Source: Candidatus Nanoarchaeia archaeon
GTDB taxonomy: Archaea; Nanobdellota; Nanobdellia; SCGC-AAA011-G17; GW2011-AR18
Assembly: GCA_041648255.1 (NCBI GenBank)
Contig: JBAZPJ010000006.1
Coordinates: 1-21,073 of the forward strand
Direction of reading: 5' to 3'
Length of the DNA: 21,073 bases
Part shown: positions 5,292-7,229 of the stretch, in pieces
Layout: the number at the start of each line of letters is the position of its first letter
Numbering within the stretch: position 1 is the stretch's first letter
Translations under genes and position numbers: made by a program
Notes under the pieces: generated by a model
Told to the model about the DNA's origin: nothing
Seen by the model: the letters and a program-made list of their open reading frames with translations, nothing else
Database searches by the model: none

Positions 5292-6236
5292 ATGGATTCT
5301 CTTAAAACACGCTATGGTTCAATTCCTTTCTCCGAGCTTAAAATATTTGATATTCCTGGATATCCTAAAATCCCTTTAAGTAATTATTTTGATAAGCTTG
5401 TTAATCCTCAAATAGATAAGAAAGCTACTAACATAAGAATAGAACTCAAAAACGGCAATCAAATACGAATTTCAACTTTGCAATTACAATCGTTAAATCC
5501 GTCTACACTTAAAACCTTACAAATTCTTAGTTCCCCTCATATTATTACCTATCCAAAATACCTTACACCCAAACTTGCTTATCTTGTCGGCTACCTTTAT
5601 GGTGACGGAGGGTTTAAAGATATTCGAAAAACGTATCTATGTTCAGGTAAATATGAATACAAGATGGTTGTTTCTGATGAGTTTGAATTACAAATTAAAG
5701 ATAGGATACAGGTTCTTTTTAGCGAAATTTTTAATCTTAATGCACCCCTTAGAAGAGAACGTCTCCTTAAAGGAGAGAATTTAGTCTATCTTAATCCTAC
5801 TTGTAAATTGGTTTATATTTTTCTTTCAAGAGTTTTTGACTTTCCAGAAGGAGCTAAAACCACTCTCCACATCCCTCGGCTGATTAAATCCGGCCCGATC
5901 CAAATTCAACAATGGTTTTTAAGAGGATTAATGGATTCAGACGGCGATGTTCGTGCTACGGAAGCTTGGACAGGTAAGTCTACTTCTTCTCCGCGTATAA
6001 AACTTAAACTAGCAGACAGAGTTTTTTTATTGGAAGCACAATCTCTCTTTCGAACAGCTTTTGAAATTAATTTTACCGGCCCCTACACGGATGATTATGG
6101 TGGATGGTATATTCAAATAGGTAAAGGTGGTGTTCTCAAAGCACATTCTTGTTCCCTATTTTATCATCCAGTTAAAGCTTGGAGATTGAATAGATTGAAA
6201 AAAATATTAGAAATGGGGCGAGAGGGACTTCCATGA
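5292..6236 (+). CDS. double-motif LAGLIDADG homing endonuclease, free-standing
   Basis: Two dodecapeptide motifs: LAYLVGYLYGDGGF and WFLRGLMDSDGDV, both keeping the acidic residue. The last 8 codons (6213-6236) are antisense to exon 4 and intron 3 of the tRNA-Phe gene. Flanking sequence looks neither rRNA-like nor intein-like. Confidence 0.85.
   Translation: MDSLKTRYGSIPFSELKIFDIPGYPKIPLSNYFDKLVNPQIDKKATNIRIELKNGNQIRISTLQLQSLNPSTLKTLQILSSPHIITYPKYLTPKLAYLVGYLYGDGGFKDIRKTYLCSGKYEYKMVVSDEFELQIKDRIQVLFSEIFNLNAPLRRERLLKGENLVYLNPTCKLVYIFLSRVFDFPEGAKTTLHIPRLIKSGPIQIQQWFLRGLMDSDGDVRATEAWTGKSTSSPRIKLKLADRVFLLEAQSLFRTAFEINFTGPYTDDYGGWYIQIGKGGVLKAHSCSLFYHPVKAWRLNRLKKILEMGREGLP
6211..6221. repeat. direct repeat AAATGGGGCGA (copy 2), overlapping the tRNA-Phe acceptor 3' strand
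   Basis: Identical to 5209-5219. On the minus strand it is TCGCCCC (positions 66-72) plus A73 plus TTT. Confidence 0.55.
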
Positions 6237-6356
6237 CTTTTGGTCAATTTGGACCCCCGACACCTACGTCTTCAGCGTAGTACTCTCCATAGCCACCTTT
6301 CGGTTCAGGCTGAGCTACCGTTCTGGTTCCTAAAGCCACGGCTTGTAAGAATCCCC
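6214..6356 (-). tRNA. tRNA-Phe(GAA) with three non-canonical introns (exons 6356-6353, 6320-6306, 6288-6248, 6227-6214)
   Basis: Minus strand reads GGGG[32 nt]CGGTAGCTCAGCCTG[17 nt]GGAGAGTACTACGCTGAAGACGTAGGTGTCGGGGGTCCAAA[20 nt]TCCCTCTCGCCCCA. After splicing it is 74 nt.
- Acceptor GGGGCGG/TCGCCCC, with G7-U66.
- D arm GCTC-AGCCTGGGA-GAGT, the conserved Phe-type UAGCUCAG..UGGGAGAG.
- Anticodon arm CTACG-CTGAAGA-CGTAG with U33, GAA at 6271-6273 and G37.
- Variable loop GTGTC.
- T arm GGGGG-TCCAAAT-CCCTC.
- Discriminator A73.

Intron 2 sits in a perfect hBHBh' motif (CTC-AGCC-TGA-ACC-gaaa-GGT-GGCT-ATG-GAG), as does intron 3 (GGGGG-TCCA-AAT-TGAC-caaaa-GTCA-TGGA-AGT-CCCTC). Intron 1 has a relaxed BHB (ATGG/CCAG central helix with one A-G mismatch, lower helix TTCTT/AGGAA). 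TATAAAAA lies at about -30 to -23. A T-run follows the 3' end. This is the only GC-rich island in the region. Confidence 0.8.
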
Positions 6357-6461
6357 ATGTGCTCAGTATAAAATCGGTTTTTTATACACTATAAAACCCT
6401 TTCGGTAGATTTCCAGATTTTCTTCAATAAACTATTTTAATACTAAACACTTAATTTCTCT

Positions 6462-7229
6462 ATGAACTCTCAATCCAAAACTTCAACAACCTTATTGGAA
6501 TTTGATAATGTTCTTTCTACTTACCAATCCCCTTTTCATGGACTAAAAGCTTTGTCTCCTTACGTGCATTGGTTTCCCCTTCAACGCTCCGTTGCTCTTG
6601 CAGGAATTATTGCAGACTTGATGGGTGACGGACATTTACAGGACTCTCCTAAATTAAGACTAGATTATACTTCCAAACATATAATAGAGCTTCAACGCTT
6701 TAATCAACAGCTTTCCTTTTTATTCAATATTCAAGGAAAAGTCAGAGATTGTACCACAAATCGTTACGGTACTAAAAACTTGGGAGTCAATAATAAACCA
6801 CTTGCTCGAACTCTCAAACTATTGGGCGTTCCAACTGGGAGGAAAGTCATAACTCCGTTTTTTATTCCAGAATGGATCTTAACAGACAAACTCTACTTTG
6901 CTCGTTTTGTAAATCGATTATTTTCTTGTGAAGCTACCGTGGATCCAGCTTCAAAGGCTATTGAAATTCAAATGTATAAATCTTTAGAAATGGTTGAAGA
7001 TGGTATCACCTTTTTTAATCAACTGAAGGAAGGTTTAGAAAATCATTTTGGGATTATTACTAGCCGACCCTTTCTAGAAAGCCGTATCTTTTTAAGATCA
7101 GATGGTACTAGAACTCGTGCTATTCGCCTAAAGATTAAGAAAAAAGACTCCCTTCAACGATTTAAAGAGTTCATTTCTTTTGATGATAAGGATAAACTTC
7201 ATCGCTTGATTGCTATAACCACAACCTAA
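6462..7229 (+). CDS. LAGLIDADG-family endonuclease-like protein, free-standing, divergent from tRNA-Phe
   Basis: Motif 1 is LAGIIADLMGDGHL. The second motif, FVNRLFSCEATV, is degenerate (Glu at the acidic position). TATA-like TTTTAATA lies about 26 nt upstream of the ATG. It shares no obvious close similarity with the 5292 gene outside the motifs. Confidence 0.7.
   Translation: MNSQSKTSTTLLEFDNVLSTYQSPFHGLKALSPYVHWFPLQRSVALAGIIADLMGDGHLQDSPKLRLDYTSKHIIELQRFNQQLSFLFNIQGKVRDCTTNRYGTKNLGVNNKPLARTLKLLGVPTGRKVITPFFIPEWILTDKLYFARFVNRLFSCEATVDPASKAIEIQMYKSLEMVEDGITFFNQLKEGLENHFGIITSRPFLESRIFLRSDGTRTRAIRLKIKKKDSLQRFKEFISFDDKDKLHRLIAITTT

What the first reader, a model, noticed from the sequence alone, without database searches (positions are those of the whole stretch)
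5292..7229. Two dissimilar free-standing LAGLIDADG genes bracket, and one overlaps antisense, a multi-intron tRNA gene
Archaeal LAGLIDADG endonucleases are normally found inside rRNA introns or inteins. Here both genes (5292-6236 and 6462-7229) have their own TATA-like promoters and flank a tRNA gene. The first converges on it and overlaps its 3' exon and intron 3, with its TGA stop lying inside the intron-3 stem. The second diverges from its promoter.

Free-standing endonuclease genes lodged in tRNA clusters are known from phages, for example T4 SegB, but not as a described archaeal arrangement. Possible roles:
- homing at tRNA-gene targets;
- involvement in the spread of the tRNA introns;
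- domesticated, maturase-like functions.

The second protein has a degenerate second motif (LFSCEATV).
Basis: partly seen in the sequence, partly recalled or inferred. Interest (0 to 1): 0.65.

Follow-up and report, generated by a model that had tools for sequence, protein, structure and literature searches.

The report
Homing-nuclease genes parasitising a tRNA-Phe gene
Two different selfish DNA-cutting enzyme genes sit on either side of a three-intron tRNA-Phe gene in a tiny (DPANN) archaeon; relatives of each are found beside tRNA-Phe in dozens of other genomes, each with its own characteristic intron, which suggests a testable way that archaeal tRNA introns spread.

Summary
ORF1 (5292-6236) and ORF2 (6462-7229) are intact two-motif LAGLIDADG endonucleases. 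Between them, on the minus strand (6356-6214), lies a tRNA-Phe(GAA) gene with three bulge-helix-bulge introns at 4/5, 18/19 and 59/60. ARAGORN and Rfam both miss it. ORF1 overlaps its 3' end antisense by 23 nt.

- ORF2 relatives lie within about 15-280 nt of a tRNA-Phe gene in 34 of 35 loci, in four different orientations.
- ORF1 relatives abut tRNA-Phe in 16 of 16 loci, and often use the tRNA's U8-A9-G10 as their stop codon.
- The window is the only locus with both families.

Each family tracks one intron. An acceptor-stem intron is present in 27/34 ORF2 loci against 2/17 without ORF2. A D-loop intron is present in 16/16 ORF1 loci against 2/34 without ORF1.

Catalytic residues are invariant, decayed copies exist, and the ORF2 family is small (74 clusters at 50% identity).

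Best reading: free-standing homing endonucleases target the tRNA-Phe gene, and the ORF-less introns break their recognition sites. This would be "collaborative homing", known from a cyanophage but, in the papers I could search, not described in archaea. Cleavage itself is untested. Motif 2 of ORF2 is not degenerate.

The parts
5292..6236 (+). ORF1: free-standing two-motif LAGLIDADG endonuclease gene (314 aa). It is I-DmoI-like, with an extra beta-rich N-terminal domain of about 90 aa.
   Evidence: ORF list. Family alignment A2 has invariant YGDGG (D105) and DxDGD (D217). The family profile hits I-DmoI at E 4.5e-5. AlphaFold pLDDT is 90.1. Foldseek matches I-DmoI at TM 0.72-0.76.
6462..7229 (+). 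ORF2: free-standing two-motif LAGLIDADG endonuclease gene (255 aa), closest to the endonuclease domains of archaeal inteins.
   Evidence: ORF list. Alignment A1 has invariant D56 (GDGH) and E157 (CEG/CEA). The family profile hits TliVMA/PI-PfuI at E 2e-6. AlphaFold pLDDT is 95.4. Foldseek matches PI-PfuI, TliVMA, I-Tsp061I and I-DmoI.
6214..6356 (-). tRNA-Phe(GAA) gene: a 143-nt precursor of four exons and three introns, giving a 74-nt mature tRNA. The T-loop reads UCCAAAU, with C at position 55.
   Evidence: The hand-spliced sequence is called tRNA-Phe by ARAGORN. A custom spliced aligner gives the same solution. Homologous genes occur in about 50 other loci.
6321..6352 (-). Intron 1 (32 nt), in the acceptor stem at 4/5. 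Its bulge-helix-bulge motif is relaxed: the central helix is leader A-2 U-1 G1 G2 against CCAG (3 bp plus an A.G mismatch).
   Evidence: Read from the sequence. Homologous introns with the conserved 3' end ..ACCAKAA occur in 27/34 ORF2-family loci. The leader pairs covary with the intron: CTGG/CCAG, ATGG/CCAT, TTGG/CCAA, ACGG/CCGT.
6289..6305 (-). Intron 2 (17 nt), in the D-loop at 18/19. Canonical motif: AGCC / bulge UG|A / inner hairpin / GGCU / bulge AU|G.
   Evidence: One search finds the same motif in 13 loci (12 besides the window). There is a compensatory change in the central helix (AGCC/GGCT to AGTC/GACT), and the inner helices are fully different yet still paired.
6228..6247 (-). Intron 3 (20 nt), in the T-loop at 59/60. 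Canonical motif: UCCA / bulge AA|U / UGAC-loop-GUCA / UGGA / bulge AG|U.
   Evidence: The minimum-energy fold draws exactly this motif. An intron sits at the same site in L041 and L042.
6214..6236 (.). 23-nt antisense overlap between the ORF1 3' end (codons M G R E G L P stop) and tRNA exon 4 plus intron 3.
   Evidence: Coordinates. The ATG GGG CGA of ORF1 is the complement of the 3' acceptor strand. In six relatives the same 'MGR/MGT stop' ending is encoded by the sense 5' acceptor strand plus U8A9G10.
6378..6386 (-). TATA-like box (TATAAAAAA), 22-30 nt upstream of tRNA position 1.
   Evidence: By eye. Not tested. Inference only.
5264..5271 (+). TATA-like box (TTTTAAAG), 21-28 nt upstream of the ORF1 ATG.
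   Evidence: By eye. Not tested.
6433..6442 (+). TATA-like box (TATTTTAATA), 20-29 nt upstream of the ORF2 ATG.
   Evidence: By eye. Not tested.

Best explanation
ORF1 and ORF2 are two distantly related free-standing LAGLIDADG homing-endonuclease genes, and each has colonised the tRNA-Phe gene of DPANN archaea.

Proposed mechanism:
1. Each enzyme recognises about 20 bp of an uninterrupted tRNA-Phe gene in genomes that lack it. For ORF1 the site would be around D-loop position 18/19. For ORF2 it would be around the 5' leader and acceptor position 4/5.
2. It makes a double-strand break there.
3. Repair from the nuclease-bearing allele copies in both the nuclease gene and the adjacent tRNA allele.
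4. In the carrier genome, the short ORF-less bulge-helix-bulge intron at that position splits the recognition site. The host's only tRNA-Phe gene is therefore not cut, and the host splicing endonuclease restores the tRNA.
5. Intron and nuclease thus travel together. This is 'collaborative homing'.

The window is a rare doubly colonised locus that carries both nucleases and both partner introns.

Shown here: the LAGLIDADG fold with retained catalytic residues, the strict linkage to tRNA-Phe, the intron structures, and the family-specific intron co-occurrence.

Inferred: DNA cleavage, the target sites, immunity through the introns, and mobility.
For: 1. Enzyme identity. The fold and both catalytic acidic residues are conserved in all members.

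2. Linkage to tRNA-Phe.
- ORF2-family genes were retrieved by protein patterns only, yet they lie 15-280 nt from a tRNA-Phe gene in 34/35 loci.
- ORF1-family genes abut tRNA-Phe in 16/16 loci with downstream sequence.

3. Variable placement, as expected for repeated insertion rather than frozen gene order.
- For ORF2: 10 divergent on the 5' side, 22 co-directional on the 5' side, 2 on the 3' side.
- These states are scattered on the protein tree.

4. Physical fusion. The stop codon of six ORF1 relatives is the tRNA's own U8A9G10.

5. Family-specific introns.
- Acceptor-region intron: 27/34 ORF2 loci against 2/17 loci without ORF2 (Fisher p = 8e-6).
- Intron in D-loop positions 14-19: 16/16 ORF1 loci against 2/34 (p = 3e-11).
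- The window, the only locus with both genes, has both introns.
- L066 is syntenic with L030 (about 72% identical) but lacks ORF2. Its tRNA-Phe has neither an acceptor nor a D-arm intron.

6. Alternative immunity. Of the six intron-less tRNA-Phe genes next to ORF2 relatives, four differ within TAGCTCAG (GCTT/AAGC, GTTC/GAAC, CAAT) and two have a shortened D-loop. This is what immunity by substitution would look like.

7. Life-cycle signs of a selfish gene.
- Truncated or frameshifted copies (L036, L037).
- An in-frame stop in L042.
- A 710-nt deletion that removes most of a related LAGLIDADG gene beside tRNA-Asn in L031 relative to L030, which is about 90% identical.
- The ORF2 family has only 74 clusters at 50% identity in 1.84 billion representatives.

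8. The introns are real. The bulge-helix-bulge helices covary.

9. Precedent. A free-standing nuclease whose site is broken by an intron in the neighbouring gene is established for F-CphI and psbA in a cyanophage (PMC6083498, read).
Against: - No cleavage, target site or mobility event was observed. Everything beyond the anatomy is inference.
- The loci are related by descent. The Fisher tests overstate independence, so one ancient origin with co-inheritance could produce much of the intron association.
- 7 of 34 ORF2 loci lack the acceptor intron.
- L004 has the 18/19 intron without an adjacent ORF1, and L046 and L050 have an acceptor-region intron without ORF2.
- Many further introns in these tRNA-Phe genes (37/38, 20/21, 25/26, variable loop, T-loop, including window intron 3) have no partner nuclease.
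- DPANN tRNAs are known to be intron-rich in general (PMC5829648).
- Both families are well conserved (40-60% identity) and have stayed tied to one isoacceptor across phyla. That would also fit a host function.
- No clean 'empty site' allele was found for ORF1 or ORF2 themselves.
Confidence: 0.55

Rival explanations
1. Intron-independent ('intronless') homing. The two genes are selfish free-standing homing endonucleases that target the tRNA-Phe gene or its flanks. The introns are unrelated passengers of a generally intron-rich DPANN tRNA repertoire. Self-immunity comes from point differences in the site.
For: - Same evidence of linkage and decay as the main explanation.
- 7/34 ORF2 loci have no acceptor intron, and six of those tRNAs have no intron at all.
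- Many introns have no partner nuclease.
- Other tRNAs with several introns exist nearby, for example in L054.
- Disrupted tRNAs are known in DPANN (PMC5829648).
Against: - The family-specific intron positions.
- The additive pattern in the window.
- The syntenic ORF2-less locus L066, which lacks both the acceptor and D-arm introns.
- Most non-Phe tRNAs in the same loci have no intron or only the canonical one.
Confidence: 0.2
2. Domesticated LAGLIDADG proteins with a host function tied to tRNA-Phe. Examples would be a maturase- or chaperone-like factor that helps the multi-intron pre-tRNA fold for the splicing endonuclease, or a WhiA-like DNA-binding regulator of the tRNA-Phe promoter.
For: - Long-term, near-obligate linkage to one tRNA across DPANN phyla.
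- 40-60% sequence conservation.
- ORF1 relatives and the long forms of a third family physically overlap the tRNA gene in sense, which suggests co-transcription.
- LAGLIDADG maturases (bI3) and WhiA appear among the structural matches.
Against: - Both catalytic acidic residues are invariant in both families. In WhiA and in pure maturases they are lost (my background knowledge).
- ORF2 relatives also sit beside six intron-less tRNA-Phe genes.
- Decayed copies exist, and syntenic loci lack the gene.
- The ORF2 family is small and, by inference, sporadic.
- Orientation is not conserved.
Confidence: 0.15
3. Passive association. tRNA-Phe is an integration hot spot, and the LAGLIDADG genes are cargo or remnants of integrated elements or viruses, or simply conserved gene order.
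For: - tRNA genes are classic attachment sites (PMC4090602).
- L003 has a 17-nt direct repeat of the tRNA 3' end about 60 nt downstream.
- A Bro-N domain gene lies 1.1 kb away in the window.
Against: - No integrase or other element genes accompany the nuclease genes in any locus.
- The genes are immediately adjacent to the tRNA, usually on its 5' side, or overlap it. Integration sites usually lie at the 3' end of a tRNA gene (my background knowledge).
- No relatives were found in 2.9 million viral contigs.
- The flanking genes differ between loci.
Confidence: 0.05

Closest known systems
Collaborative homing: free-standing endonuclease F-CphI beside the intron-containing psbA gene of cyanophage S-PM2 (Zeng, Bonocora & Shub 2009; summarised in PMC6083498)
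   Same: A free-standing nuclease gene lies next to a conserved gene that carries an ORF-less intron. The intron is proposed (there it is shown) to break the nuclease's site, so the two spread together.
   Different: - There: an Endo VII-type nuclease, a self-splicing group I intron, a protein-coding gene, and a phage.
- Here: LAGLIDADG nucleases, protein-spliced bulge-helix-bulge mini-introns of 15-45 nt, a tRNA gene, and cellular archaeal chromosomes.
- Here two different nuclease/intron pairs sit on one 74-nt gene.
- Cleavage is untested here.
I-DmoI, I-Tsp061I and related archaeal LAGLIDADG enzymes encoded inside rRNA bulge-helix-bulge introns
   Same: The same enzyme fold (TM 0.7 to I-DmoI for ORF1), the same intron type, and the same domain of life.
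   Different: In those cases the ORF lies inside a long rRNA intron. Here the ORFs lie outside the gene, and the introns are too short to encode anything.
Phage T4 SegB (free-standing nuclease in the tRNA gene cluster) and mobE trans-homing (PMC2790892)
   Same: Free-standing homing endonuclease genes lodged next to tRNA or other conserved genes, which mobilise neighbouring DNA by gene conversion.
   Different: SegB is a GIY-YIG enzyme and mobE an HNH enzyme. Both are phage genes, with no obligate pairing with one isoacceptor and no bulge-helix-bulge introns. (The SegB family assignment is my background knowledge.)
Intein-borne LAGLIDADG endonucleases (PI-PfuI, TliVMA intein)
   Same: These are the closest sequence and structure relatives of ORF2.
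   Different: No Hint/splicing domain is present, and the gene is not inserted in a host protein.
Randau & Soll hypothesis that introns protect tRNA genes from integrating elements (discussed in PMC4090602)
   Same: The intron serves as a way to destroy a DNA recognition site without changing the mature tRNA.
   Different: The attacker there is a viral or plasmid integrase. Here it would be a neighbouring homing endonuclease, and the intron would also gain mobility from it.
Domesticated LAGLIDADG proteins (WhiA, bI3 maturase)
   Same: Same fold. Both appear among the Foldseek matches.
   Different: Those proteins have lost the catalytic acidic residues (my background knowledge). Both families here keep them invariant.

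Membership tests
LAGLIDADG homing endonuclease (single-chain, two-motif) | Two LAGLIDADG motifs, each ending in a catalytic Asp or Glu | tested here: met
   ORF2 family: LAGIVADLMGDGH (D56) and RLFSCEG/A (E157), both invariant in 22 sequences. ORF1 family: YLVGYLYGDGG (D105) and GxxDxDGD (D217), both invariant in 12 sequences.
LAGLIDADG homing endonuclease (single-chain, two-motif) | Pseudo-dimeric alpha-beta-beta-alpha-beta-beta-alpha fold | tested here: met
   AlphaFold pLDDT 95.4 and 90.1. Foldseek probability 1.00 to I-DmoI, I-Tsp061I, PI-PfuI, PI-SceI and I-SceI.
LAGLIDADG homing endonuclease (single-chain, two-motif) | Pfam LAGLIDADG_3 (PF14528) at or above its gathering score | tested here: not met
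   The window proteins score 20.3 and 14.2 bits against a cut-off of 22.5. Many homologs carry a precomputed PF14528 hit, and family profiles hit solved LAGLIDADG enzymes. This is a threshold issue and does not exclude membership.
LAGLIDADG homing endonuclease (single-chain, two-motif) | Site-specific double-strand cleavage of a long DNA target | not testable with these tools
   Needs purified protein and substrates.
Mobile (selfish) homing endonuclease gene | Presence/absence and decay polymorphism among related genomes | tested here: inconclusive
   - Decayed ORF2 fragments in L036 and L037.
- The syntenic locus L066 lacks ORF2.
- A 710-nt deletion of a related third-family gene in L031 relative to L030.
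- Only 74 clusters at 50% identity.
- No precise empty site was found for ORF1 or ORF2.
Collaborative homing (free-standing nuclease plus ORF-less intron) | Nuclease gene adjacent to, not inside, an intron-containing conserved gene, with the intron lacking an ORF | tested here: met
   Window anatomy. The introns are 17-32 nt. The same holds in about 45 other loci.
Collaborative homing (free-standing nuclease plus ORF-less intron) | Nuclease and its particular intron co-occur across genomes | tested here: met
   27/34 against 2/17 (p = 8e-6) and 16/16 against 2/34 (p = 3e-11). Caveat: the loci are not phylogenetically independent.
Collaborative homing (free-standing nuclease plus ORF-less intron) | The nuclease cuts the intron-less allele at or near the intron insertion site, and the intron blocks cutting | not testable with these tools
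   Needs a biochemical assay.
Archaeal bulge-helix-bulge tRNA intron | Two 3-nt bulges separated by a 4-bp helix at the exon-intron junctions | tested here: met
   Introns 2 and 3 are canonical. Intron 1 is relaxed, with 3 bp plus an A.G mismatch and use of the 5' leader. Its homologs have a perfect 4-bp helix.
Archaeal bulge-helix-bulge tRNA intron | Removal yields a canonical cloverleaf tRNA | tested here: met
   ARAGORN calls the spliced sequence tRNA-Phe(GAA). The one oddity is C55 in the T-loop.
Archaeal bulge-helix-bulge tRNA intron | Covariation that maintains the motif | tested here: met
   D-loop intron: AGCC/GGCT changes to AGTC/GACT, and the inner helices are all different but paired. 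Acceptor intron: the leader positions -2 and -1 covary with the intron.
Intron-encoded archaeal endonuclease (I-DmoI type) | ORF located inside the intron it mobilises | tested here: not met
   Both ORFs lie outside the tRNA gene and on the opposite strand. No locus among about 60 has the ORF inside an intron.

The most novel reading that the evidence does not exclude
These free-standing LAGLIDADG nucleases are the DNA-level mobility engine for ORF-less archaeal tRNA introns, a mechanism that has so far been missing. Each nuclease family would cut intron-less tRNA alleles at 'its' intron site and so drive nuclease and mini-intron together through DPANN populations. Repeated attacks by different nucleases would explain why a single tRNA gene accumulates up to four introns. 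A related family beside tRNA-Asn, and a distant ORF2 relative beside tRNA-Gln, suggest the principle extends beyond tRNA-Phe.
Probability: 0.4. Interest if true: 0.85.

Novelty: new variant of a known kind. Interest (0 to 1): 0.75.

Why it matters
How archaeal tRNA genes gain introns at non-canonical positions is an open question. [quoted passage not shown]

Here is a concrete candidate that can be assayed: two nuclease families, each tied to one intron position in one tRNA. Two proteins of 255 and 314 aa, plus a 74-bp synthetic target with or without each intron, would settle it.

If confirmed, it would do three things:
- extend collaborative homing from a phage group I intron to protein-spliced archaeal introns;
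- give a selective reason (nuclease immunity) for the fragmentation of tRNA genes;
- provide new LAGLIDADG scaffolds whose natural targets are tRNA genes.

There is also a practical point. ARAGORN (with and without its intron options) and Rfam miss this tRNA-Phe in the window, and ARAGORN with its intron option called tRNA-Phe in only about a quarter of the loci. 'Missing tRNA-Phe' in DPANN genome annotations can therefore be an artefact. In addition, some gene calls run straight through the tRNA gene.

Tried and rejected
- **Standard tRNA and RNA-family detection.** ARAGORN with and without its intron options and Rfam at gathering and at E up to 10 found no tRNA. I had to splice by hand and write a spliced aligner. 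The first version failed because stem positions were unconstrained. Later versions resolved about 80% of loci, and I curated the rest by eye.
- **Pfam on the two proteins.** Sub-threshold hits only.
- **Whole-precursor folding energy.** Not unusual (z = -0.55) and therefore uninformative, although the fold does draw the motif of intron 3.
- **ORFs inside a large intron, or a split tRNA.** Rejected. Complete acceptor strands flank every tRNA, and the ORFs lie outside it.
- **Integrated element or virus.** No integrase nearby and no relatives in viral contigs.
- **ORF1 and ORF2 as recent duplicates.** Rejected. The only similarity is BLASTP E = 7e-4 around motif 1.
- **L004, the closest ORF2 relative, as a second double locus.** The 86 nt beyond its tRNA 3' end encode an unrelated C-terminus.
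- **Literature.** Four searches found no description of the LAGLIDADG/tRNA-Phe linkage. Only open-access papers and bioRxiv were searched.

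
Full report
**1. What is in the window**

Pfam alone gives only sub-threshold LAGLIDADG_3 hits (20.3 and 14.2 bits against a cut-off of 22.5). The family-level evidence is clear:
- A profile of 12 ORF1 relatives hits I-DmoI, the classic enzyme encoded in an archaeal rRNA intron (E 4.5e-5).
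- A profile of 22 ORF2 relatives hits the endonuclease domains of archaeal V-ATPase inteins and PI-PfuI (E 2e-6).
- AlphaFold models are confident (pLDDT 90.1 and 95.4).
- Foldseek returns LAGLIDADG enzymes at probability 1.00.

Both catalytic acidic residues are invariant in each family: D56 and E157 in ORF2, D105 and D217 in ORF1. ORF2's second motif (LFSCEA) is therefore not degenerate. Only the glycine after the catalytic Glu is replaced, as in 4 of the 22 sequences.

The two proteins are only remotely related to each other (BLASTP E 7e-4 around motif 1).

The flanking genes are ordinary archaeal chromosome genes: a class I aminoacyl-tRNA synthetase, aRF1, ScpB and glycosyltransferases. 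G+C is about 35%. All relatives come from DPANN metagenome-assembled genomes labelled Woesearchaeota, Nanoarchaeota or Aenigmatarchaeota.

**2. The tRNA gene**

ARAGORN and Rfam report nothing. Read on the minus strand, however, 6356-6214 contains all the parts of tRNA-Phe(GAA), interrupted three times. Removing 32, 17 and 20 nt gives a 74-nt sequence that ARAGORN folds into a clean cloverleaf. A spliced aligner I wrote gives the same solution.

- Intron 2 (18/19, D-loop): central helix AGCC/GGCU flanked by 3-nt bulges.
- Intron 3 (59/60, T-loop): central helix UCCA/UGGA flanked by 3-nt bulges. The minimum-energy fold draws this motif exactly.
- Intron 1 (4/5, acceptor stem): a relaxed motif whose central helix uses two leader nucleotides plus G1G2.

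Comparison with homologous genes shows covariation:
- In the D-loop intron, the central helix changes from AGCC/GGCT to AGTC/GACT. The inner helices differ completely in sequence but always pair.
- In the acceptor intron, leader positions -2 and -1 covary with the intron: CTGG/CCAG, ATGG/CCAT, TTGG/CCAA, ACGG/CCGT.

These are real bulge-helix-bulge introns.

ORF1's last 23 nt are antisense to exon 4 and intron 3, and its TGA lies in the inner stem of intron 3.

One oddity is that the T-loop reads UCCAAAU, with C at the normally invariant position 55. This change pairs with a G in intron 3, where L041 has U and A at the same places.

**3. The decisive test: neighbourhoods of the homologs**

I fetched loci through protein patterns only, so the sample is unbiased with respect to tRNAs.

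*ORF2 family.* The sample was 34 loci from GTDB species genomes, one metagenome locus and the window; after removing a duplicate of the metagenome locus (L012 = L003), that is 35 loci.
- 34 of the 35 loci have a tRNA-Phe(GAA) gene 15-280 nt from the ORF.
- The single exception, L036, is a truncated gene fragment.
- Placement varies: 10 divergent from the tRNA 5' end (as in the window), 22 co-directional just upstream, one co-directional downstream and one convergent.
- On a neighbour-joining tree of the proteins these states are intermingled, so the arrangement has changed repeatedly.

*ORF1 family.* The sample was 19 metagenome loci plus L001.
- All 15 non-redundant loci with downstream sequence have tRNA-Phe immediately after the ORF on the same strand, which makes 16 of 16 with the window.
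- In six of them the stop codon is the tRNA's own U8-A9-G10, for example L041: CTA ATG GGA CGA TAG CTC.
- The window is the only case where the tRNA is inverted relative to ORF1. ORF1 nevertheless still ends ...M G R..., now encoded by the complement of the 3' acceptor strand.
- The junction ATGGGGCG is thus the same in both orientations. Inversion of the tRNA gene across its acceptor-stem inverted repeat (ATGGGG...CCCCAT) would explain this. That is inference.

The window is the only one of 56 loci that carries both families.

**4. Each family goes with one intron**

The tRNA-Phe genes beside these ORFs are strikingly fragmented, with up to four introns each.

| Intron | Loci with the family | Loci without the family | Fisher p |
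|---|---|---|---|
| Acceptor region (3/4 to 9/10), conserved 3' end ..ACCAKAA | 27/34 (ORF2) | 2/17 | 8e-6 |
| D-loop positions 14-19 | 16/16 (ORF1) | 2/34 | 3e-11 |
| The exact 18/19 class | 13/16 (ORF1) | 1/34 | 2e-8 |

Further observations:
- The doubly occupied window carries both partner introns.
- L066 is syntenic with L030 at about 72% identity but lacks ORF2. Its tRNA-Phe has the same acceptor stem but neither an acceptor nor a D-arm intron.
- Of the six intron-less tRNA-Phe genes beside ORF2 relatives, four differ within TAGCTCAG (GCTT/AAGC, GTTC/GAAC, CAAT) and two have shortened D-loops.
- Most non-Phe tRNAs in the same loci have no intron or only the canonical one. Two multi-intron tRNAs in L054 show that fragmentation is not exclusive to tRNA-Phe.

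Caveat: the loci share ancestry, so the p-values overstate independence. Exceptions also exist in both directions. L004 has the 18/19 intron with no ORF1 beside it. L046 and L050 have an acceptor-region intron with no ORF2.

**5. Signs of a selfish life cycle**

- L037 holds a frameshifted N-terminal remnant of an ORF2 relative beside an intron-bearing tRNA-Phe. L036 holds another fragment.
- The ORF1 relative in L042 has an in-frame stop.
- A third LAGLIDADG family, related to ORF1 (profile E 6e-11), sits beside tRNA-Asn in L030. In the roughly 90%-identical L031, 710 nt of that gene are deleted.
- An exhaustive HMMER scan of 1.84 billion representatives finds only 74 ORF2-family clusters at E up to 1e-30. 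I read this as a sporadic distribution, though I have no baseline for a universal gene.
- No relatives occur in 2.9 million viral contigs, and no integrases accompany the genes.

**6. Mechanism**

The anatomy matches 'collaborative homing' as defined for the cyanophage nuclease F-CphI. There, a free-standing endonuclease cuts the intron-less allele of the neighbouring gene, and the intron in its own genome breaks the site and is carried along (PMC6083498).

I propose the same here:
- ORF1 would target the D-arm region of an uninterrupted tRNA-Phe gene, with the 18/19 intron as the site breaker.
- ORF2 would target the leader/acceptor region, with the 4/5 intron as the site breaker.

Because the tRNA sequence is constrained, an intron removed by the host splicing endonuclease is a neat way to destroy a DNA site without changing the RNA product. 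This is the logic of the Randau-Soll protection hypothesis (PMC4090602), but with a homing nuclease as the attacker.

The fold, residues, linkage, intron structure and co-occurrence are shown. Cleavage, target sites, immunity and mobility are inferred. I put 0.55 on this explanation.

The rivals are:
- homing without any role for the introns (0.2);
- a domesticated tRNA-Phe factor, maturase-like or WhiA-like (0.15), weakened by the invariant catalytic residues, the intron-less neighbours and the decayed copies;
- passive association with an integration hot spot (0.05).

**7. Comparison with what is known, and novelty**

LAGLIDADG enzymes, bulge-helix-bulge introns, multi-intron DPANN tRNAs (PMC5829648), free-standing nucleases in phage tRNA clusters (T4 SegB) and collaborative homing are each known. 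The combination is not described in any paper I could find (open-access papers and bioRxiv only):
- free-standing LAGLIDADG genes obligately linked to one archaeal tRNA gene;
- each family paired with a particular ORF-less bulge-helix-bulge intron;
- sometimes sharing nucleotides with the tRNA gene.

I classify it as a new variant of a known kind. It matters because it offers a testable DNA-level mechanism for the gain and spread of archaeal tRNA introns, which a 2014 review calls unknown (PMC4090602).

**8. Extension beyond tRNA-Phe (partly followed)**

- A distant ORF2 relative (P0126) is followed 14 nt later by tRNA-Gln.
- Short forms of the third family lie 85-110 nt downstream of tRNA-Asn in three of four distinct short-form loci (L030, L060, L065/L066; none in L063).
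- Its long forms (four loci) have an ORF that starts upstream of a tRNA-Phe gene and stays open in frame through the whole tRNA gene, introns included. In L062 there is no alternative start codon before the LAGLIDADG domain. Three of those tRNA-Phe genes carry the 18/19-class intron.

Nuclease genes beside, or overlapping, tRNA genes may therefore be a wider DPANN theme.

Noticed in passing
window 6214-6356 (-): ARAGORN (also with its intron options) and Rfam miss this tRNA-Phe. ARAGORN with its intron option called tRNA-Phe in only about a quarter of the loci fetched (13 of 56). 'Missing tRNA-Phe' in DPANN genome annotations can therefore be an artefact of multiple non-canonical introns.
   Followed up: yes
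window 6248-6254 (-), T-loop: The mature T-loop would read UCCAAAU, with C at the normally invariant U55. This C pairs with a G in intron 3 (central helix UCCA/UGGA). L041 has UUCA/UGAA at the same site, so this is a compensatory exon-intron change. Whether the tRNA works with C55 is unknown.
   Followed up: partly
L062 1501-2493, L067 1201-2193, L068 1201-2202, L069 1201-2139: In the long forms of a third LAGLIDADG family, the called ORF starts 5-57 nt upstream of a tRNA-Phe gene and stays open in frame through the entire tRNA gene, including its introns. In L062 there is no ATG, GTG or TTG between the tRNA 3' end and the first LAGLIDADG motif. A tRNA gene is thus embedded in sense inside a protein-coding frame.
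   Followed up: partly
L038, L041, L043, L045, L051, L052 (ORF1-family loci): The ORF's stop codon TAG is the tRNA's own U8-A9-G10. In L039 the stop TGA is formed by tRNA nucleotides U17a-G18 plus the first intron nucleotide. RNase P processing of a co-transcript would remove the stop codon from the mRNA.
   Followed up: partly
L030 1849-2558 against L031 2561-2564: Two Aenigmatarchaeota loci about 90% identical differ by a 710-nt indel. It removes most of a LAGLIDADG gene located about 85 nt downstream of tRNA-Asn(GTT). L031 keeps only the last 40 or so codons.
   Followed up: yes
L057 2501-3216: P0126 is a 209-aa LAGLIDADG protein 28% identical to ORF2. It is followed 14 nt later by an intron-less tRNA-Gln(CTG). 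The organism is unknown, and the flanking genes and G+C look different from the DPANN loci.
   Followed up: no
L003 about 3540-3556 (-) and L012 (same sequence): A second copy of the tRNA-Phe 3' end (AAATCCCGGTTGCCCCA) lies about 60 nt downstream of the gene. It could be an attachment-site-like duplication or an alternative 3' exon.
   Followed up: no
window 5292-5560 (ORF1 residues 1-90): ORF1 has an extra beta-rich N-terminal domain that the shorter family members (P0010-P0012, L046-L053) lack. The top Foldseek hits for the whole protein are intein-endonuclease structures with long alignments but high rmsd. The domain might be an intein-derived or DNA-recognition module.
   Followed up: no
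window 12452-13538 (-): An adjacent HEPN-domain gene and nucleotidyltransferase-domain gene form a typical HEPN/MNT toxin-antitoxin-like pair.
   Followed up: no
window 3346-4179 (+): A protein with a Bro-N domain, which is common in viruses and mobile elements, lies 1.1 kb upstream of ORF1.
   Followed up: no
L004 (PDZS01000121.1), L010, L014, L015, L017, L019: Several contigs that carry this DPANN-specific gene/tRNA pair are deposited in genome bins labelled Deltaproteobacteria or Methanosarcinales. These are probably binning or labelling errors.
   Followed up: no
L062 3102-3668 and L069 2198-2764: In two third-family loci, a tRNA-splicing endonuclease gene (tRNA_int_endo) lies within about 1 kb of the LAGLIDADG/tRNA-Phe pair. 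This may be coincidence.
   Followed up: no
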